A program made the position numbers and the translations under genes. DNA of 64,000 nucleotides from a virus. Numbering within the stretch: the first letter of the stretch is position 1; the number at the start of each line of letters is the position of its first letter. The stretch lies in IMG/VR virus record IMGVR_UViG_3300020185_000011. One strand, 5' to 3'. Below are positions 29-7,370 of this stretch, piece after piece. The notes beneath the pieces were generated by a model. That model worked only from the letters and a program-made list of their open reading frames with translations. It did no database searches and was not told where the DNA came from.

Positions 29-1459
29 ATGGCAACAGGTTCACAAAAGGTCAAAACACCAGCAGGTTGGAATTCAACCCAAGGTGCATGGGTAAAGACA
101 GGTTCTTCCACATGGAAAGCAGTCGACCAAATCTATATTAAAACCCCTACTGGATGGAACAATGCATCAGGGCAGACTGCAACTCAAATTCCATATCCGT
201 ACATTGCAAATGGACAACAGCCAAACATAAGGGATGCTCAACAACCATATCCATACATTGCAAATGCACAACAACCAAACATAAGAGATGCACAGCAACC
301 GTATCCATATATTGCTAATGCACAAGAACCAAACATAAGGGATGCACAGCAACCATATCCTTATATAGCGAATGCAAGACAACCTTCTACGTACCAACAT
401 AGGAGTCCGTTTACATATGCAAGACAGGGACAAACACCGTTCACTTATCAACATAGGTCTCCATTTACATATAGAAACCCAGTAAATGGTCAAGAACCTA
501 ATATACGTAATAGTCAAACACCTTTCACTTATAGAAATCCAGTGAATGGACAAGAGCCTAATATTAGAGATGCACGTCAACCTTCTACGTATCAGCATAG
601 AAGTCCATTTACGTACAATCATAGGTCACCATTTACGTACAGTCATAGGTCTCCATTCACATATAGAAGTCCAGTGAATGCTCAAGAACCGAACATTAGA
701 GATGCAAGACAACCTGCTACGTATCAACATAGGTCACCGTTAACATATAGTCATAGGTCTCCGTTTACATATCAGCACAGGTCTCCATTTACATATAGAA
801 GTCCTGTAAGCGCACAGGAACCTAATATTAGAAATGCACGTCAACCTGCTACGTATCAGCACAGGTCACCTTTAACATATAGTCACAGGTCACCATTCAC
901 GTATCAACATAGGTCACCATTTACATATAGAAGTCCTGTATCTGCTCAAGAACCTAATATACGTAATGCAAGACAACCTTCTACGTATCAACATAGAAGT
1001 CCGTTAACATATAGTCATAGGTCACCATATACATACAGTCATAGGTCTCCGTTCACTTACAGAAACCCTGTATCTGCTCAACAACCTAATATACGTTCGG
1101 CACAACAACCTAATATACGTTCGGCACAACAACCGTTTACGTTCCAAAATCCGTTTACTTATCGACAACCAAGTAATGCTAGACAACCGAATAATGCAAG
1201 GAACCCATTTACGTATAGAGTACCGTATATTGCAAATGCTAGACAACCGAATAGTGCAAGGAACCCATTCACTTATAGAGTACCTTACATTGCTAATGCA
1301 AGACAACCGAATAGTGCAAGAAGCCCATTCACTTATAGAGTACCTTACATTGCTAATGCAAGGCAACCTGTTATTTCTCAGTCACCGTTTACATATAGTC
1401 ATAGGTCACCATTCAACTACTACTTTACTGGGGGTGGTGGCAACTTCTGTGAGCCATAA
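29..1459 (+). CDS. Pro-periodic repeat protein A (476 aa), probable virion fibre chain
   Basis: Trp-rich 54-aa N-terminus (WVKTGSSTWK), then 55 Pro-initiated units of 6/8/10 aa (PYPYIANAQQ, PNIRDAQQ, PFTYQHRS, PFTYRS, PVSAQE), ending GGGGNFCEP. Lies upstream of a tail-chaperone-like gene and the neck genes. Confidence 0.75.
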   Translation: MATGSQKVKTPAGWNSTQGAWVKTGSSTWKAVDQIYIKTPTGWNNASGQTATQIPYPYIANGQQPNIRDAQQPYPYIANAQQPNIRDAQQPYPYIANAQEPNIRDAQQPYPYIANARQPSTYQHRSPFTYARQGQTPFTYQHRSPFTYRNPVNGQEPNIRNSQTPFTYRNPVNGQEPNIRDARQPSTYQHRSPFTYNHRSPFTYSHRSPFTYRSPVNAQEPNIRDARQPATYQHRSPLTYSHRSPFTYQHRSPFTYRSPVSAQEPNIRNARQPATYQHRSPLTYSHRSPFTYQHRSPFTYRSPVSAQEPNIRNARQPSTYQHRSPLTYSHRSPYTYSHRSPFTYRNPVSAQQPNIRSAQQPNIRSAQQPFTFQNPFTYRQPSNARQPNNARNPFTYRVPYIANARQPNSARNPFTYRVPYIANARQPNSARSPFTYRVPYIANARQPVISQSPFTYSHRSPFNYYFTGGGGNFCEP

Positions 1460-2752
1460 GCCGATGAAAAACATGACAAGAAATAATATTAAACTAACAG
1501 GAGTTTTAAAGTGCCTATAGGTAATAGACAACAACCTACTATTAAGAACGCACAGCAACCTGTCGCGTCTCAGAATCCGTTCACATATGCAAACAGATAT
1601 CCAGCGAGTGCTCAACAACCTTTTACGTTCCAAGCACCATTTACATATAGTGCAAGATATCCAGCGAGTGCTCAACAACCTTTTACGTTCCAAGCACCAT
1701 TTACATATAGTGCAAGATATCCAGCGAATGGACAGCAACCGTTTACGTTTCAGAATCCGTTTACTTACAGACACCCTATGTCTGCGAGACAACCTAACAA
1801 CGCAAGGAATCCATTTACATACAGTTATAGGTCTCCATTTACGTACAACTATAGGTCACCATTTACATATAGAAGTCCTGTAAATGGTCAAGAACCTAAT
1901 ATACGTTCTGCACAAGAGCCTAATATTAGAAGTCAACAAGAACCTAATATACGTTCTGCACAGACTCCGTTCACTTATCAATATAGAAGTCCGTTCACTT
2001 ATAGAAACCCTGTATCTGCTCAAGAACCTAATATTAGAAACATACAGCAACCTAACATTAGAAGTCAGCAAGAACCTAATATACGTAATAGTCAAACACC
2101 GTTCACTTATCAGCACAGGTCTCCTTTCACTTATAGGAACCCTGTATCTGCACAAGAACCGAACATTAGAGCTGCACAACAACCTAATATTAGAAGTCAA
2201 CAAGAACCTAATATTAGAAACAGTCAAACACCGTTTACGTACAATCACAGGTCTCCATCTACATATAGGAACCCTGTATCTGCTCAAGAACCTAATATAC
2301 GTTCTGCTCAAGAACCTAATATACGTTCTGCACAAGAGCCTAACATTAGGGATGCTCAGACTCCGTTCACTTATCAATATAGAAGTCCGTTCACTTATCA
2401 GAATCCTAGTAATGCACGTCAACCTGCTACATATCAGTACAGGTCACCGTTCACTTATCAGAATCCAGTAAGCGCACAGGAACCTAATATTAGAAATGCA
2501 CAGCAACCGTATCCATACATTGCAGCTGCTCAAGAACCTAATATACGTAATGCACAGACTCCGTTTACTTATCAGAGAACAGGTCAAACACCGTTCACTT
2601 ATCAGCACAGGTCTCCATTCACGTATGCAAGACAGGGTCAAACACCGTTTACGTATCAACATAGAAGTCCGTTCACATATCAAAGAACAGGTCAAACACC
2701 GTTTACGTATCAACACAGAAGTCCATTCACATATGCAAGACAGGGTCAAACC
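191..2752 (+). repeat. Coding modular tandem repeats of 18/24/30 nt units (191-1408 and 1535-2752)
   Basis: Recurrent DNA units such as caagaacctaatatacgt, ccgttcacttat and cataggtcacca, with synonymous variation. Confidence 0.95.
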
Positions 2753-2815
2753 CCCGAAGCAAGATGGGATGGAGTGGTATCACAACAGTGGCCTGCAACC
2801 CCAATTACATCATAG
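1511..2815 (+). CDS. Pro-periodic repeat protein B (434 aa), antiparallel partner of protein A
   Basis: GTG start with AGGAG SD at 1499-1503; 55 Pro-initiated units from the same vocabulary in mirror order; Trp-containing C-terminal tail; followed by a terminator. Confidence 0.75.
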   Translation: MPIGNRQQPTIKNAQQPVASQNPFTYANRYPASAQQPFTFQAPFTYSARYPASAQQPFTFQAPFTYSARYPANGQQPFTFQNPFTYRHPMSARQPNNARNPFTYSYRSPFTYNYRSPFTYRSPVNGQEPNIRSAQEPNIRSQQEPNIRSAQTPFTYQYRSPFTYRNPVSAQEPNIRNIQQPNIRSQQEPNIRNSQTPFTYQHRSPFTYRNPVSAQEPNIRAAQQPNIRSQQEPNIRNSQTPFTYNHRSPSTYRNPVSAQEPNIRSAQEPNIRSAQEPNIRDAQTPFTYQYRSPFTYQNPSNARQPATYQYRSPFTYQNPVSAQEPNIRNAQQPYPYIAAAQEPNIRNAQTPFTYQRTGQTPFTYQHRSPFTYARQGQTPFTYQHRSPFTYQRTGQTPFTYQHRSPFTYARQGQTPEARWDGVVSQQWPATPITS

Positions 2816-2835
2816 GAACTTACCCGACAGTGAAC

Positions 2836-2862
2836 AAACCCCTCGAAAGAGGGGTTTTTTTT
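2836..2862 (+). terminator. Rho-independent terminator after the repeat gene pair
   Basis: AAACCCCTC-GAAA-GAGGGGTTT hairpin followed by a T-run. Confidence 0.9.
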
Positions 2863-2879
2863 ATCCTCTAAATACCAGT

Positions 2880-4460
2880 ATGAAAAATATAAGCACCCTT
2901 GAAGAAGCAAAAGAGTTAATTATCCCACAAGATTGGGACAAACTAAGAGACCAAGATAGAAGACACATTGGTAATTTCCATCTAGGTTCATTTAATATAG
3001 AACCAGGCTTTAGTAAAACTAGTGAAACATATAAAATTCTAGACTGGTTATTCAAAGAGATTCTTCCACCTGTAAAAATTGCAAAGTGGTCAGACTTTGA
3101 ATACCTAAGAAAGGAAAATAGATTTGGTGGGTTCAATGGTTTGAGAAATGAATCAGTAACCTATCACAAGTTCCTACCAAGAGGTTATGCAGAGAAACCT
3201 AGAAAGGTTATCCCAGGCGTAGCAGGTATGGATATGAAAGATGCTGATGGATATGTCGATATAGACACATTAATCGATTGGGATACCGTTGAAAATAGAG
3301 ACCAAAGTGCAGAAGGGTCATTACTATCGATGTATTATCATGGTGCAAAAGCACATTGGTTAATTCAAAGTATTCAAGAGGAAGGTCTTAGAGCTCCTAT
3401 TCAAGGATATGTTATCAGTCATGGTATTACTGGTAATAATGTAGAACCAACTTATACATTTAGAATACATCCAGGCTCTATTAGGAGTGGTGTGTTTGAA
3501 GAATTGAATGATAATGATATGGAAATTATGGTAATAGATAATTTTGATGTCGTGAAAGTTGAACCATCAAGCCTAGACGATGTGTTAGAAATGTGGTATA
3601 ATAAGTTAACGAGATTAGGTAAAGCATATCATTGTTCATTTACGTATGTTGATGGATGTATTGAATACAATACTGCATTGATGGACTTAGATTTCAGAGA
3701 AGAAGTACATGCATTCAACAAACAAGTCTTTGAACTTGCAAAGGGTAAACCCCTAACAATTTATATTGGACATGATAGTAGGCATGGAGATTTGTCTAAG
3801 TGTTCTAAGTTTGCAATCCTAGAAAGTATTAAAAGTGGATTCGGTAAAGGCTGGATGCACGACCAAGTTAAATGGGAACCCGAAGTCAAGATACTTGACA
3901 TTGCTGAGATTCCCGAGTATACTAGAGAGTATGCTAATCAAAGTACTGAATTTACATACAGTAGATTTCTAATACCTTACCTAGAGAACTATGAAGGGTT
4001 TAGTATCTTCATTGATGATGATTTCATCTTCAACAAAAGCATACTACCTATGTTCTACTATCTAAACCCAAACGATGCTGTTGCATGTATTAAATACCCA
4101 CAATACGAACATGATGCAACCAAGTTTGACGGTGAAGTTAATATCGATTATCCAAAGAAGCTGTGGTCTAGTATGATGGTGTTCAACAACGGACATGAAG
4201 ACTGTAAGAAGTTAACACCCGAAGTTGTCAACACATGGACAGGAAAACAGTTACATCAATTCGAATGGACTGATAAGATTTCACCTATACCCGAACACTA
4301 TATCTTTGTGGAAGGGTATGATAATCACGAAGAAAAGTATAATTATAGTGGTATTCACTATACTCGTGGTGGCCCATGGGTAAAAGGCATGGATTATTCT
4401 ACCATAAATAATCTTGAAGACTTTTTAAAAGTGAAAAGAAAGTTGCCAATTGGCGATTAG
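2880..4460 (+). CDS. Glycosyltransferase (GT-A, GT8/CDI-like C-terminal domain) fused to an N-terminal domain with ParB/Srx-like motif
   Basis: IYIGHDSR, STEFTYSRF, DDD (DxD), WSSMMVFN, HYTRGGPW motifs; N-terminal LIQSIQEEGLRAPI...IHPGSIR. True start is taken as ATG 2880, after the terminator and the TAAATA box at 2869-2874. Confidence 0.75.
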   Translation: MKNISTLEEAKELIIPQDWDKLRDQDRRHIGNFHLGSFNIEPGFSKTSETYKILDWLFKEILPPVKIAKWSDFEYLRKENRFGGFNGLRNESVTYHKFLPRGYAEKPRKVIPGVAGMDMKDADGYVDIDTLIDWDTVENRDQSAEGSLLSMYYHGAKAHWLIQSIQEEGLRAPIQGYVISHGITGNNVEPTYTFRIHPGSIRSGVFEELNDNDMEIMVIDNFDVVKVEPSSLDDVLEMWYNKLTRLGKAYHCSFTYVDGCIEYNTALMDLDFREEVHAFNKQVFELAKGKPLTIYIGHDSRHGDLSKCSKFAILESIKSGFGKGWMHDQVKWEPEVKILDIAEIPEYTREYANQSTEFTYSRFLIPYLENYEGFSIFIDDDFIFNKSILPMFYYLNPNDAVACIKYPQYEHDATKFDGEVNIDYPKKLWSSMMVFNNGHEDCKKLTPEVVNTWTGKQLHQFEWTDKISPIPEHYIFVEGYDNHEEKYNYSGIHYTRGGPWVKGMDYSTINNLEDFLKVKRKLPIGD

Positions 4461-4471
4461 TATGTTATAAT
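4443..4471 (+). promoter_or_regulatory. sigma70-type promoter with extended -10
   Basis: TTGCCA-N17-TATAAT with TG at -15/-14. Confidence 0.6.
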
Positions 4472-4491
4472 AGTAACGAGGAACTATAATT

Positions 4492-5049
4492 ATGAATGCA
4501 TTTATATACGACAGTGATGGTACAATTTTTGTCCGTAAACCAAACGGACTGGAATACAACTATGAGAATGTCGACAAACCTGCTTTTGATTTTGAATATG
4601 ATGTTGTCATCTATGATGATATCGAAGTAAAGATTGAGAAGTGGGAAGACGGTCTAAACTTTGACCAACAACAAAAAGTTGCACTTTCAAGAGAAGAGTG
4701 TGAAATTATTGAACAATACATTGAGAATAGTGAACCACCTATGGGTCATAGTCTCAATAGTCAAATCGTTGACAGTCTCTATAGAACTACAGATAAATAT
4801 GTTGACGAAGAGTGTAGACAATACAGATTCAAAGACTTGAATGAAGCAATGTATGCTGGTAGAGAAGGTTCATCCCATCCCCATAGAAACAATGCAAGAA
4901 GAGCTCTTGAATATGCAGACGCAATCAATTGTGTTCTTGCACAACTTGTAGACGAAGTCCAACAAACTAGAGAAGATTTCTTAAAGGACTATGACGCTTA
5001 TCAGAGTGAACTACCAAGTCCATACGTACCCGAAGATACCAGAGCTTAA
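4492..5049 (+). CDS. Putative tail fibre assembly chaperone-like protein
   Basis: C-terminal pattern (YVDEECRQYRFKDLNEAMYAG...ARRALEYADAI...ELPSP) resembles phage tail-fibre chaperone proteins; adjacent to fibre-like genes. Confidence 0.45.
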   Translation: MNAFIYDSDGTIFVRKPNGLEYNYENVDKPAFDFEYDVVIYDDIEVKIEKWEDGLNFDQQQKVALSREECEIIEQYIENSEPPMGHSLNSQIVDSLYRTTDKYVDEECRQYRFKDLNEAMYAGREGSSHPHRNNARRALEYADAINCVLAQLVDEVQQTREDFLKDYDAYQSELPSPYVPEDTRA

Positions 5050-5052
5050 GTA

Positions 5053-5757
5053 ATGTTCGAAAATGTTGAGTTAGAGTTCATCAAGGAACCCTTTCATATC
5101 AAAGATATGCCTTTGAAAAATATGTATATCCTTGATGACTATCTATCTCCAACATTACATCATGCAATAGACGAACAGATAGTTCGAAAGTCTTACTGGG
5201 CAAAGACCAACCAAGTGAATTCAAACTCACCTACAGGATTACCGCACCATAGTTTTTGGGGTGCTGGGTTTTTCAGAGGAGAGAATCAAGAAATAGAACA
5301 CGGTATGGAACCTAAAGACACATACTTAATGGGATGGTTCAATAGAAAGCTACAAACTGATTTTGGTTTTATGTGGGAAAGGTTTCAATACTTTGGATTG
5401 AACTCACAAACTCAAGGATTGGAAGGAACCACACATTCAGATTGTGATATGGAAGATGATTGGAATCTATCATTCTTATATTATCCAAATAGATTTTGGA
5501 ATGATTCATGGGGTGGGTCTTTACGATTGTATGATGAACCACAACAAGGAATCCATGGAAGAGCAGACCACATTAAAAATCATCAAACACAAGAAATATA
5601 TTTTAAACCAAATAGATTGTTGATATTTGACGGAAGAATACCACATGGTGCAGATGCACCATCTCCAAAGGCACGATATATGGATAGACGTTCTTTGGTA
5701 ATAAGAGGAGACGAAATTAGTATAAGAACTTTATGGGGTGAAGATGCCTACGATTGA
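5053..5757 (+). CDS. 2OG-Fe(II) oxygenase, prolyl-hydroxylase-like
   Basis: HxD (HSD), WGGSL, distal H (PHGA) and R motifs. Confidence 0.8.
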   Translation: MFENVELEFIKEPFHIKDMPLKNMYILDDYLSPTLHHAIDEQIVRKSYWAKTNQVNSNSPTGLPHHSFWGAGFFRGENQEIEHGMEPKDTYLMGWFNRKLQTDFGFMWERFQYFGLNSQTQGLEGTTHSDCDMEDDWNLSFLYYPNRFWNDSWGGSLRLYDEPQQGIHGRADHIKNHQTQEIYFKPNRLLIFDGRIPHGADAPSPKARYMDRRSLVIRGDEISIRTLWGEDAYD

Positions 5758-6670
5758 ATTCACAACTTACGATAAGAGAACCACAGAGTTATGGAGACCT
5801 GTTTTAGCTAAAAAGGTTGTTCCCGATTGGTGGAAGACCATGAAAGTTCAAGAGATGGTTCGTGGGAATAAGACTCAAACTATTAGGTCATGTCCAGCAA
5901 TGGACGACTGGTTAAAGAGTGGTTGGTACATATGTGCAAAAACAGATATGCAAGTAAAGGTAAATGAAGACGGTAGGTCAATGACAGACCCAAACAATCC
6001 CCTTCATTCTCCAACTCATCCAGCTGCACAAGGTGGTCATAACTTTACCTACCTACCCAAAGAGGATGCACCCACTAAAGATGCATTTAAAATGAGAGCT
6101 CCTTGGAATATTATTACACCACCAGGCTATTCATGTCTATATCTAGACCCCTTTCTATTTCAGAATACTCATTTTGCAACATGGCAGGGAATCATCGATA
6201 CAGATACATTCAATGTGAATATGGATAATTCTCAGATTATATTCTATCCTAAAACGAATAAGGACTTTGTAATCAAAGAGGGTACACCACTAGTACAGGT
6301 CGTTCCTTACAGAAGAGAAGTGTGGAATGCATCCTATATAACTTATGATAATAAATCATGGCAAGAGAATCGTTCTGTAAGAACTACACATAGAGTAGGA
6401 GAGGACGGTGAGAAACTCAAGACCATGGACGAATGGAATAGGTCACCCGAACTCAGAGAAGAGAAGAGACACATAGAAGGAATGGCTGGTGCATACAGAA
6501 GAATTAAATATTGGAATGAAAAGGGAAGGATGTTCAAAGAAGATAATCCACCACCCGAATGTCCTATGCACAACCCCGATGTAAATGACGAGGTAGAGAT
6601 GGAAAGGGATTATAAAAAAGAACAATTGAAACAAACTGATTTGAATTGGGATGGTCAAGATGACAGTTAG
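5744..6670 (+). CDS. Conserved T4-like phage protein (DUF6065-like), often found beside oxygenases
   Basis: PDWWK, CPAMDDWLKSGW, PWNIITPPGYSCL, GIIDTD, GTPLVQVVP motifs. Confidence 0.55.
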   Translation: MPTIEFTTYDKRTTELWRPVLAKKVVPDWWKTMKVQEMVRGNKTQTIRSCPAMDDWLKSGWYICAKTDMQVKVNEDGRSMTDPNNPLHSPTHPAAQGGHNFTYLPKEDAPTKDAFKMRAPWNIITPPGYSCLYLDPFLFQNTHFATWQGIIDTDTFNVNMDNSQIIFYPKTNKDFVIKEGTPLVQVVPYRREVWNASYITYDNKSWQENRSVRTTHRVGEDGEKLKTMDEWNRSPELREEKRHIEGMAGAYRRIKYWNEKGRMFKEDNPPPECPMHNPDVNDEVEMERDYKKEQLKQTDLNWDGQDDS

Positions 6671-7370
6671 ATTAGCATTCCCTACTGCTATATTTGAAAG
6701 AGATTTACTTGACAAAGAAAAGTATGGTAACGATGCTGTTACAATTGAATACATCGATTCTCTTAGAAATGAAATGGATGCATGGAGACAAAGAGACCCG
6801 AAGGGAAGGCAGATTTCAAATAGATATACTGGTTGGCAGTCGGAAGATGGTATAGAACAACATCCAAGTTTTGCAAAGATTATAAGATGTATTGAAGCTG
6901 CATTGAGAGAAGAGGTGCAGACATTCTTTGGAGTAAATCCAAATGCAGCCCAAATTAAAATAGACAACACATGGGCAAACATAAATGATAAAGGTGCGTG
7001 GAACACACCACACTTACATAATGGTTGTTGGTATAGTGGAGTATGTTATATACATGGTGACGGTGACGAGGGAGACCTCAATATGATTAATACCGATGCT
7101 AAAGTAGTTGCAGACCACCCATCTTTGCAACGACACCAAGAGAGTATTCAGTACCAACCTAAAACTGGAAGACTCATATTGTTTCCTAGTGGTGCAATGC
7201 ATATGGTAGAACCCAATCCCACAGACAAAGATAGATACTCAATCTCTTTCAATTGTAGAGTACAATACATTGGTAATCCCTCAGATGCAAGAAAACCGTG
7301 GAGAAACCCACCGCCTGAAGATGAATTTACTTTTGAATTAGATTCAAATGGCGACCCCATAATCAACTAG
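6660..7370 (+). CDS. 2OG-Fe(II) oxygenase (TIGR02466-like)
   Basis: WANIN, HLH, SGVCY, GRLILFPS, HMVEPN, RYSISFN. Confidence 0.8.
   Translation: MTVRLAFPTAIFERDLLDKEKYGNDAVTIEYIDSLRNEMDAWRQRDPKGRQISNRYTGWQSEDGIEQHPSFAKIIRCIEAALREEVQTFFGVNPNAAQIKIDNTWANINDKGAWNTPHLHNGCWYSGVCYIHGDGDEGDLNMINTDAKVVADHPSLQRHQESIQYQPKTGRLILFPSGAMHMVEPNPTDKDRYSISFNCRVQYIGNPSDARKPWRNPPPEDEFTFELDSNGDPIIN

What the first reader, a model, noticed from the sequence alone, without database searches (positions are those of the whole stretch)
191..2752. Residue-level covariation across the antiparallel register, independent of which chain carries the unit
Seen, pairing A unit i with B unit 56-i: all three PLTYSHRS units of A face the only three PNIRSQQE units of B. 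PATY units face PNIRNSQT three times, once with the chains swapped (B43 PATYQYRS opposite A13 PNIRNSQT). The 8-residue PSTY units face PNIRxAQT. PFTF units always face PN(N/S)AR units, in both directions (A42/B14, A45/B11, A48/B8, A51/B5). Inference: these are compensatory cross-strand contacts, an alphabet of partner pairs that could serve as a programmable peptide-pairing system.
Basis: partly seen in the sequence, partly recalled or inferred. Interest (0 to 1): 0.85.

Follow-up and report, generated by a model that had tools for sequence, protein, structure and literature searches.

The report
Two phage proteins with a mirror-image pairing code
Two neighbouring genes of an uncultured marine T4-like phage encode proline-punctuated repeat proteins whose units are complementary when one chain is read backwards. 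Facing residues co-vary across dozens of relatives, which points to a natural, sequence-coded antiparallel protein duplex that I could not find described in the sources searched.

Summary

**In the window**
- Gene A (29-1459) and gene B (1511-2815) each split at proline into 55 units of 6, 8 or 10 residues.
- Pairing A unit i with B unit 56-i gives equal length at 55/55 positions and complementary class at 54/55. One class is aromatic (PxTY/PFTF). The other is polar (PNIR/PYIA/PVxAQ/PNNAR).
- No other shift, the parallel order, or self-pairing exceeds 60%.

**In about 50 distinct homologue pairs from viral metagenomes**
- Covariation is confined to even positions and runs along the antidiagonal. 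Aromatic-unit residue 2 pairs with partner residues L-2 and L; residues 6 and 8 pair with partner residues 2 and 4.
- Mutual information peaks only at the facing unit: 0.60 bit, against 0.09 or less at offsets of 1 to 8 units. That range includes the 6-unit super-repeat period, so block duplication is excluded.
- Codon complementarity at these sites is at background, so nucleic-acid pairing is excluded.
- Orthologous units show coupled substitutions (F/A to L/Q, A/S to S/A), with an odds ratio of 13.8.
- A second pair in the same genome uses the same rules in a different unit order.

**Limits**
- Physical contact is inferred, not shown. All three structure predictions returned low confidence.
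- The most likely role is the shaft of a tail-fibre-like appendage.
- The scan had already noted this same stretch.

The parts
29..1459 (+). Gene A, 476 aa: conserved Trp-rich N-terminal cap, 55 repeat units, short Gly-rich tail ending GGGGNFCEP
   Evidence: ORF. Units parsed. 217 viral contigs encode a relative.
29..190 (+). A N-terminal cap (aa 1-54), nearly invariant among homologues. In the antiparallel register it lies beside the C-terminal end of B.
   Evidence: Invariant columns in alignment A1. N-termini listed.
191..1408 (+). A repeat region, 55 units of 6/8/10 residues. All 59 prolines fall on one parity.
524..1093 (+). 132-nt (44-aa, six-unit) super-repeat of A, about 4.3 copies. 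It makes the in-window repeats of a pair non-independent.
   Evidence: Tandem Repeats Finder.
737..760 (+). First of three PLTYSHRS units in A (the others are at 869-892 and 1001-1024). Each faces a PNIRSQQE unit of B.
497..520 (+). A13 PNIRNSQT, facing B43 PATYQYRS (2423-2446). This is the chain-swapped instance of the A/(S,T) rule.
1499..1503 (+). AGGAG ribosome-binding site, 7 nt before the GTG start of B. Three TAA stops lie in frame between A and B, so B is translated separately.
1511..2815 (+). Gene B, 434 aa: short N-terminus, 55 repeat units, Trp-containing C-terminal cap
   Evidence: An adjacent B-like ORF is present in 77 of the 78 loci; the 78th ends before it.
1535..2752 (+). B repeat region, 55 units. 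Read backwards it matches A in unit length (55/55) and is complementary in class (54/55). All 56 prolines fall on one parity.
1833..2322 (+). 132-nt super-repeat of B, about 3.7 copies, mirrored to that of A
1919..1942 (+). First of three PNIRSQQE units in B (the others are at 2051-2074 and 2183-2206)
2880..7370 (+). Conserved downstream cassette: GT8-like protein, an unknown ORF, a 2OG-Fe(II) oxygenase, an unknown ORF and a second 2OG-Fe(II) oxygenase. It is syntenic with the pair; a functional link is not shown.
   Evidence: Pfam. Present in 73-77 of 78 homologous loci.

Best explanation
A and B are made from adjacent genes and assemble side by side in opposite directions, in one fixed register. 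Together they form a long heteromeric rod, most likely the shaft of a tail-fibre-like appendage of an uncultured marine T4-like myovirus.

Each chain is an extended, beta-type strand. Proline recurs every 6, 8 or 10 residues and always on the same parity, so the even-numbered side chains of both chains lie on one face and meet each other.

Pairing is specified at two levels.
1. Unit level: an aromatic unit (PxTY.., PFTF..) always lies opposite a polar unit of the same length (PNIR.., PYIA.., PVxAQ., PNNAR., PYPYIA..). Either chain can carry either kind.
2. Residue level: residue 2 of the aromatic unit fits residues L-2 and L of its partner. Examples are F with A+Q/E, L with Q+E, A or G with S/N+T, D with R+N, T with K/Q/R+N, and Y with I/A+E. 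Residues 6/8 fit partner residues 2/4. Y versus F at position 4 of six-residue units goes with V/A/S versus N at partner position 2.

The non-periodic order of units works as a barcode. It fixes a single register in an otherwise repetitive rod and keeps A/B from mispairing with the paralogous C/D pair of the same phage.

Shown: the mirror architecture, the position-specific covariation, coupled substitutions, matched indels and cognate specificity of unit order.

Inferred: direct contact, beta geometry, stoichiometry and virion location.
For: **Architecture**
- 55/55 equal lengths and 54/55 complementary classes occur only at shift 0.
- The mirror holds in about 50 distinct homologue pairs of 253-735 aa. 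Aromatic faces polar in 1910 of 2006 facing units.
- Repeat-region lengths of A and B correlate at r = 0.93.
- A whole six-unit block is inserted in both genes at mirrored positions in L001.

**Specificity of covariation**
- MI matrices are non-zero only at even positions and along the antidiagonal, for L = 6, 8 and 10. Odd positions 5/5 are variable (entropy about 2 bits) yet show 0.01 bit.
- There is a single peak at the facing unit in the offset scan and in the neighbour control.

**Coupled change**
- When residue 2 differs between matched units on 50 spanning-tree edges, partner residues 6/8 differ in 140/187 cases, against 116/652 when it does not. The odds ratio is 13.8. Control position pairs give 3.6 and 2.6.
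- Examples against this window: F/AE to L/QE, A/ST to S/AT, L/QE to Y/IE.

**Independence from context**
- The rules are independent of which chain carries the unit and of unit class. A or G faces S+T in both 8- and 10-residue units.
- They recur in the paralogous C/D pair.

**Cognate barcode**
- Scores are A-B 100 and C-D 40, against A-D 14 and C-B 8. The cognate B ranks first for 46 of 50 A proteins.

**Parity**
- All 59, 56, 48 and 42 prolines of A, B, C and D lie on one parity.

**Context**
- The pair sits in the structural and fibre block just upstream of the neck genes gp13/gp14.
- Some relatives carry a C-terminal globular or Hint domain on the A-type chain, at the end where B begins.
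Against: No structural evidence exists.
- No relative has a solved structure.
- The three structure predictions returned low confidence, so contact and beta geometry rest on covariation alone.

Many sampled loci are related. Raw counts and p-values therefore overstate independence, although the offset, neighbour and control-position comparisons share that bias equally.

The rules are statistical, not absolute.
- S at position 2 is promiscuous.
- There are exceptions such as F opposite I+E in L014.

Three loci (L007, L009, L015) have partners differing by whole super-repeats. These are either assembly collapse or tolerated mismatch.

The hold-out test on the C/D family replicated only modestly: 35/49 correct against a 30/60 majority baseline. 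Many prolines are lost there and my unit parsing fails.

No proteomic or expression evidence shows that either protein is in the virion.
Confidence: 0.75

Rival explanations
1. Block duplication artefact. Both genes expanded a 44-aa super-repeat, so the same unit pairs recur opposite each other with no residue-level constraint.
For: Both genes carry 132-nt super-repeats of about 4 copies. A shift of six units still gives 29/49 complementary units. The three PLTY/SQQE pairs of the window are copies of one block.
Against: MI at offsets of six units is 0.06, against 0.60 for the facing unit. Adjacent units give 0.08-0.11 bit. The rules hold in homologues and in a paralogous pair with other unit orders, and in both chain orientations. 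Orthologous units show coupled substitutions. Variable odd positions of the same units do not covary.
Confidence: 0.02
2. Nucleic-acid-level complementarity. The mirror reflects a long DNA or RNA hairpin between the two genes, or B arose as the antisense strand of A, and the amino-acid covariation is a by-product of base pairing.
For: A gapless comparison of A with the reverse complement of B peaks at 36.6% identity in the contact register, against about 30% elsewhere. Pro CCN opposite Arg AGG, and ACGTAT opposite ATACGT, give 1.3-1.6 complementary bases per codon. Some pairs (L/Q, Y/I, A/S) can be antisense codons.
Against: No inverted repeat of 14 nt or more is present. 36.6% identity cannot form a duplex. 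At the covarying codon pairs (2,6) and (6,2), complementarity is 0.92 and 0.91 of 3 bases, which is background. Pairs such as D/R, G/F, T/K, N/Y and F/A are not antisense codons.
Confidence: 0.02
3. Indirect pairing. A and B run in opposite directions along a third component, such as a central fibre protein or further copies of themselves in a multi-stranded assembly. Facing units then covary through that shared partner rather than by touching.
For: Phage fibres are usually trimeric. A fibre-like 775-aa gene directly precedes A, and a 536-aa gene without fibre hits precedes C. The conserved odd face (P, T/I, R/Q) must pack against something. Each residue 2 covaries with two partner residues.
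Against: The pairs look like direct physico-chemical complements: D with R, G with F, F with A. They are strictly local to one facing unit. A common ruler would have to vary in step with both chains, yet the flanking genes are not repeat-coded.
Confidence: 0.1
4. The two proteins are disordered, independently acting repeat proteins, for example substrates of the neighbouring oxygenases and glycosyltransferase. The mirror order has no structural meaning.
For: Predictors give pLDDT below 50 for both chains. The composition is low in complexity. A modification-enzyme cassette is conserved next door.
Against: Reversing unit order while keeping unit direction is not a mutational operation, so a mirror kept across about 50 diverged pairs needs selection on the pair. 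Disorder does not predict strict proline parity or even-position antidiagonal covariation.
Confidence: 0.05

Closest known systems
Triple-stranded beta-helix of T4 gp5 C-terminal domain (octapeptide VxGxxxxx repeats; PMC4576200, PMC3004832)
   Same: A phage tail protein with an eight-residue sequence period. It is an extended beta structure built from intertwined chains, with alternating in/out side chains.
   Different: gp5 uses three identical chains, parallel and in register by symmetry, and has no proline punctuation. Here there are two different chains in opposite directions, units of mixed length (6/8/10), complementary unit classes and a non-periodic barcode. There is no sequence match to any solved structure.
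Heterospecific coiled coils (leucine-zipper e/g charge pairing, keratin type I/II)
   Same: Two different chains pair along their length. Partner choice is set by a small set of positions in a short repeat, so specificity is modular.
   Different: These are alpha-helical heptads, mostly parallel. Proline every 6-10 residues and a period-2 pattern exclude helices here. The unit alphabet and variable unit length have no coiled-coil counterpart.
Collagen and collagen-like phage fibres (heterotrimer register set by charge pairs)
   Same: Proline-rich fibrous shafts in which composition and register are set by inter-chain pairs. Prolyl hydroxylase-type enzymes are associated with them.
   Different: Collagen requires Gly every third residue and three parallel chains. 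Here there is no Gly period, unit lengths are not multiples of three, and the order is mirrored.
Steric zippers and hetero-amyloids (e.g. RIPK1/RIPK3)
   Same: Side chains on one face of extended strands interdigitate with a complementary face of another chain. One residue contacting two successive same-face residues fits the 2 with L-2 and L pattern.
   Different: Amyloids stack many short segments perpendicular to the fibre axis. Here two roughly 400-residue chains would pair once along their whole length.
Cementoin (PF10511) transglutaminase-substrate repeats
   Same: Hexapeptide Q/P/V-rich repeats. B scores 29.5 bits, above the 27-bit cut-off.
   Different: No single stretch passes on its own, A is below the cut-off, and the match is compositional (PVNGQE-type units). 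The family is mammalian trappin.

Membership tests
Collagen-like triple helix | Gly at every third residue (Gly-X-Y) over long runs | tested here: not met
   Units are 6, 8 or 10 residues starting with Pro, and there is no Gly period.
Alpha-helical coiled coil | Heptad pattern in uninterrupted helix-compatible sequence | tested here: not met
   Pro recurs every 6-10 residues over about 406 residues in both chains, and covariation has period 2.
gp5-type triple-stranded beta-helix | Identical chains with VxGxxxxx octapeptides, parallel by three-fold symmetry | tested here: not met
   The two chains are different and their order is mirrored. Unit lengths are mixed. No PDB sequence relative was found at E up to 1.
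gp5-type triple-stranded beta-helix | Beta-helical fold | not testable with these tools
   All predictions had pLDDT below 50.
Cementoin (PF10511) | Score above the Pfam gathering threshold, with real repeat matches | tested here: inconclusive
   B scores 29.5 bits against a 27-bit cut-off, but 0 stretches pass on their own. A scores 21.6 bits, below the cut-off. I judge the match compositional.
Phage tail fibre / host-recognition module component | Encoded among tail-fibre and baseplate genes of the structural block | tested here: met
   gp13, gp14, gp15, terminase, sheath and portal genes follow at 7.7-16.6 kb. Fibre-like and baseplate-like genes precede the pair. The position matches the host recognition cluster described in PMC7029224.
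Phage tail fibre / host-recognition module component | Presence in the virion as a fibre | not testable with these tools
   No cultured phage carries a homologue, and there are no proteomic or EM data.
Hint / intein-like autoprocessing domain | Domain of about 150 aa starting at a Cys and ending in His-Asn | tested here: not met
   Window A stops two residues after the Cys (..GGGGNFCEP). Homologues L018, L025, L040, L070, P0001 and P0003 carry the domain, and several A homologues end in ..VHNF or ..AHNF.

The most novel reading that the evidence does not exclude
This is a natural, modular beta-type pairing alphabet. It has a small set of complementary 6/8/10-residue units plus a few tunable even-position contacts. 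Their order along two antiparallel chains encodes register and partner choice, much as base sequence does in a nucleic-acid duplex. Phages diversify it by matched duplications and compensatory substitutions to build orthogonal fibres in one virion. If so, it is a new class of fibrous protein architecture and a ready-made parts list for designing orthogonal protein-protein zippers.
Probability: 0.5. Interest if true: 0.95.

Novelty: categorically new. Interest (0 to 1): 0.86.

Why it matters
Fibrous proteins whose partner choice and register are written in a simple repeat code are rare. Coiled coils and collagen are the main examples, and both became workhorses of protein design.

A beta-type, antiparallel, two-chain code with unit-level and residue-level complementarity would be a third such system. 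It comes with hundreds of natural variants that already sample the rule table.

For phage biology, it would identify an unannotated, widespread pair of structural genes in the host-recognition region of abundant marine myoviruses. It would also explain how long repetitive shafts avoid slipping out of register or mixing with paralogous fibres.

The covariation gives concrete, cheap tests: single and compensating swaps at residue 2 and residues L-2/L.

Tried and rejected
**Structure prediction gave nothing usable**
- Complex prediction on full-length A+B with alignments returned 'no answer': ipSAE 0.00 in both runs, partner pLDDT below 50.
- AlphaFold2 on a read-through 'tip hairpin' (last 168 aa of A, natural linker, first 160 aa of B) with 14 homologous rows gave mean pLDDT 38.3 and no secondary structure.
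- The same idea on 226 aa without an alignment gave pLDDT 39.8. It showed only short strands in both arms, too uncertain to read.

**Database and literature searches found nothing**
- Fused A-B forms longer than 833 aa: none (weak evidence).
- Cultured-phage homologues: none by DNA, by whole protein or by the non-repetitive N-terminal cap. The two tblastn hits (Pseudomonas and Vibrio phages, 31-35% identity) are low-complexity matches.
- PDB sequence relatives: none.
- ESM Atlas: only unnamed viral clusters.
- Literature: no paper contains the motifs or describes such a pair. The pelagimyophage host-recognition-cluster paper does not mention them.

**DNA or RNA pairing rejected**

**Hold-out replication was only modest**
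- On the C/D-type family, class complementarity was 159/195.
- Rule-based prediction of residue 2 was correct in 35/49 cases, against a 30/60 majority baseline.
- Many prolines are lost there and Pro-based parsing breaks down. Three loci could not be aligned at all.

**Simple volume complementarity**
- I considered it by inspecting the pair table and did not pursue it, because small/small (S/A) and large/large (Y/I) pairs both occur.
Full report
**What is there.**
- The window is part of a 145.9-kb IMG/VR record of an uncultured T4-like myovirus. Its portal protein is 56% identical to those of Pelagibacter phage Mosig and Methylophilales phage Melnitz, and 54% to cyanomyoviruses.
- Neck, sheath, terminase and portal genes lie at 7.7-16.6 kb.
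- Gene A (29-1459, 476 aa) and gene B (1511-2815, 434 aa) are adjacent on the + strand. B starts at a GTG 7 nt after an AGGAG site.
- Three in-frame TAA stops separate the two genes, so they encode two polypeptides.
- Tandem Repeats Finder shows mirrored block structure. A runs 54-nt, then 132-nt, then 60-nt repeats. B runs 60-nt, then 132-nt, then 54-nt repeats.

**Check of the observation.**
- Cutting each protein before every Pro (PYPY kept together) gives 55 units in A (aa 55-460) and 55 in B (aa 9-414).
- More strikingly, unit lengths (10, 8 or 6) agree at all 55 positions. At 54 of them an aromatic unit (PxTY, PFTF) faces a polar unit (PNIR, PYIA, PVxAQ, PNNAR, PYPYIA).
- Other registers do far worse. 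Shifts of six units, the super-repeat period, give 29/49. Other shifts give 12/48 or less. The best parallel order gives 49%, and self-pairing gives 50% or less.
- Within the window, residue 2 of the aromatic 8-mers carries 1.52 bit about residues 6+8 of the partner. It is 1.36 bit after collapsing identical pairs. No shuffle among 20,000 reached either value.
The super-repeat makes the three PLTY/SQQE pairs one event, so independent evidence had to come from elsewhere.

**Homologues.**
- A scan of viral contigs found 217 loci encoding a relative of A, of which 78 were kept.
- All but one locus carry an A-like and a B-like repeat ORF side by side; that locus ends before the second ORF.
- After removing duplicates, about 50 distinct pairs remain, with proteins of 253-735 aa and quite different unit orders.
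- The mirror holds throughout. Examples are 67/73, 44/46, 40/42 and 37/39 equal-length units in gapless antiparallel comparison, always better than the parallel comparison.
- Printed alignments show the same partner alphabet used in new orders and on either chain.
- Pooled, 1910 of 2006 facing units are aromatic against polar.
- Repeat-region lengths of the two partners correlate at r = 0.93.
- Using only unit length and class, the cognate B is the best match for 46 of 50 A proteins.

**Residue-level covariation.**
- Among 575 facing PxTY/PNIR 8-mer pairs, residue 2 of the aromatic unit predicts the partner's tail:
  - F goes with xA(Q/R)(Q/E).
  - L goes with xQQE in 76 of 82 cases, with L on either chain.
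  - A goes with N(S/N)QT in 26 of 29 cases.
  - T goes with N(K/Q/R)QN.
  - Y goes with S(I/A)QE.
  - D goes with xRQN in 6 of 6 cases.
  - G goes with xFQT or xNQT.
  - S is looser, with NAQT in 35 of 81 cases.
- Mutual-information matrices were corrected by shuffling and computed on distinct unit pairs. They are empty except at even positions on the antidiagonal.
  - For L=8, positions (2,6) give 0.68, (2,8) 0.47, (6,2) 0.51, (6,4) 0.55 and (8,2) 0.45 bit.
  - For L=6, (2,4) gives 0.54, (4,2) 0.40 and (6,2) 0.77 bit.
  - For L=10, (2,8) gives 0.41 and (2,10) 0.56 bit.
- The variable odd positions (5,5), with about 2 bits of entropy each, share 0.01 bit.
- In whole-protein numbering, these diagonals are the two constant registers a+b = 468 and 470, across all unit lengths.
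- PFTF six-mers face PN(N/S/D)A in 114 of 116 cases, with PFTF on A 36 times and on B 80 times. Y versus F at position 4 goes with V/A/S versus N at partner position 2.
- The A-or-G with S+T rule also appears in the 10-residue units.

**Controls.**
1. Offset scan. MI between residue 2 and partner residue L-2 is 0.60 bit for the facing unit and 0.04-0.09 bit at all offsets from -8 to +8, including six units. Block duplication would give comparable values for neighbours and a second peak at six.
2. Neighbour control within runs of 8-mers. The facing unit gives 0.56-0.90 bit and the adjacent unit 0.08-0.11 bit.
3. Coupled change.
   - On the 50 edges of a minimum spanning tree of homologues, partner residues 6/8 differ in 140 of 187 matched units where residue 2 differs.
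   - They differ in 116 of 652 where residue 2 is unchanged. The odds ratio is 13.8.
   - Control position pairs give 3.6 and 2.6, the background from whole-unit turnover.
   - Against this window, L001 has PLTYNHRS/PNIRSQQE where the window has PFTYNHRS/PNIRSAQE, and PSTYQHRS/PNIRNAQT where the window has PATYQHRS/PNIRNSQT.
   - L014 has PYTYNHRS/PNIRSIQE where the window has PLTYSHRS/PNIRSQQE.
   - L001 also carries one extra six-unit block in both genes at mirrored positions.
4. Nucleic-acid pairing. There is no inverted repeat of 14 nt or more. A against the reverse complement of B reaches only 36.6% identity. Codon complementarity at the covarying positions is 0.92 and 0.91 of 3 bases, which is background.
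5. A paralogous pair.
   - About 7 kb upstream of the window, genes C (572 aa) and D (389 aa) form a second mirror pair with a different unit order.
   - There, PATYQH(Q/R)S or PAEYQHQS faces PNIRNSQT four times in both orientations. PLTYN(F/H)RS faces PNIRNQQE or PTIKNQQE.
   - Cross-pair scores are low: A-D 14 and C-B 8, against A-B 100 and C-D 40.

**What it most likely is.**
- Reversing the order of units while keeping each unit's direction cannot be produced by any DNA rearrangement. A mirror maintained across many diverged pairs therefore means selection on the two chains as a pair.
- Strict proline parity (59/59, 56/56, 48/48 and 42/42 in A, B, C and D), even unit lengths, and covariation restricted to one parity all indicate extended strands with a two-residue repeat.
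- Each even side chain relates to two successive even side chains of the facing unit. This fits a direct plus diagonal neighbour in an antiparallel ladder, or interdigitation of two strand faces.
- I therefore read A/B as an antiparallel, in-register hetero-duplex, possibly further oligomerised. Its unit order fixes the register and the partner.
- Genomic position argues for the shaft of a fibre-like appendage. The evidence is:
  - The pair lies at the end of the fibre and host-recognition block, directly after a 775-aa fibre-like gene and before gp13.
  - The nearly invariant cap lies at one end of the duplex.
  - Relatives carry globular or self-processing domains at the other end.
- That last step is inference.

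**What failed.**
- The complex predictor gave no verdict, and both AlphaFold2 attempts on natural read-through hairpins were low confidence. Whether the covarying residues touch remains untested.
- The hold-out on C/D-type pairs from other contigs replicated only modestly, because proline loss breaks my parsing.
- Three loci have partners differing by whole super-repeats. I could not tell assembly collapse from real mismatch.

**Comparison with known systems and novelty.**
- No solved structure, Pfam family, PHROG or named protein matches. The only Pfam hit is a compositional one to Cementoin.
- No cultured phage carries the genes, and no paper in the library contains the motifs.
- Functionally, the nearest ideas are heterospecific coiled coils and collagen registers (pairing codes in fibrous repeats), the octapeptide beta-helix of T4 gp5, and steric zippers. 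It fails the defining features of each.
- I rate it categorically new. The scan had already noted this same stretch (the mirror itself and the pairing rules). This report adds the quantitative tests.

Noticed in passing
window 1409-1459; loci L018, L025, L040, L070 (C-terminal about 150 aa of the A homologue): Several A homologues continue past the conserved ..GGG..NF|C junction into a Hint/intein-like domain. The Pfam hits (Intein_splicing, Hint, Vint) are sub-threshold but consistent. Several of these homologues end in ..VHNF or ..AHNF. Window A stops two residues after that Cys (CEP*). This suggests a self-cleaving C-terminal module that this phage has lost.
   Followed up: partly
L087:7224-10111 (-), about 7 kb upstream of the window start in the same record: A second mirror pair, C (572 aa) and D (389 aa), uses the same unit alphabet in another order. 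C has a roughly 230-aa non-repeat C-terminal domain ending in a Gly run. D ends in two VxVND.GT.rK hairpin-like motifs. Several prolines are replaced, yet the register persists.
   Followed up: partly
window 2880-7370: A GT8-like protein (weak Pfam hit, phrog_28018), an unknown ORF, a P4H-type 2OG-Fe(II) oxygenase, an unknown ORF and a second 2OG-Fe(II) oxygenase follow the pair. They are syntenic in 73-77 of 78 homologous loci. They are candidate modifiers of the Pro/Thr/Tyr-rich chains, which was not tested.
   Followed up: partly
window 167-2749, minus strand and other + frames: Long ORFs lie on the opposite strand and in shifted frames across both genes (for example 167-622, 1856-2422 and 1884-2471). 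They are by-products of stop-free repeats. PNIR written CCT AAT ATT AGG would be its own reverse complement, and ACGTAT (T-Y) mirrors ATACGT (I-R).
   Followed up: partly
L007, L009, L015: In these contigs one partner is one or two 44-aa super-repeats longer than the other. For example, L007 A is 497 aa with the same 540-aa B as L004, whose A is 585 aa. This is either collapse of repeats in metagenome assembly or naturally tolerated bulges.
   Followed up: no
L087:52-2379 (-) and L087:10113-11723 (-): Each mirror pair is directly preceded by a large gene: 775 aa, with phrog_697 and tail-fibre hits, and 536 aa, with only an unknown-function PHROG hit. Their C-termini end alike (..GDMWILYS and ..VGHLWFVI). 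These are possible carriers onto which the duplexes dock.
   Followed up: no
window 2496-4460: The listed 654-aa ORF starts inside gene B in another frame. The real GT8-like gene most likely starts after 2815 (first Met near ..MKNISTLEEAK).
   Followed up: no
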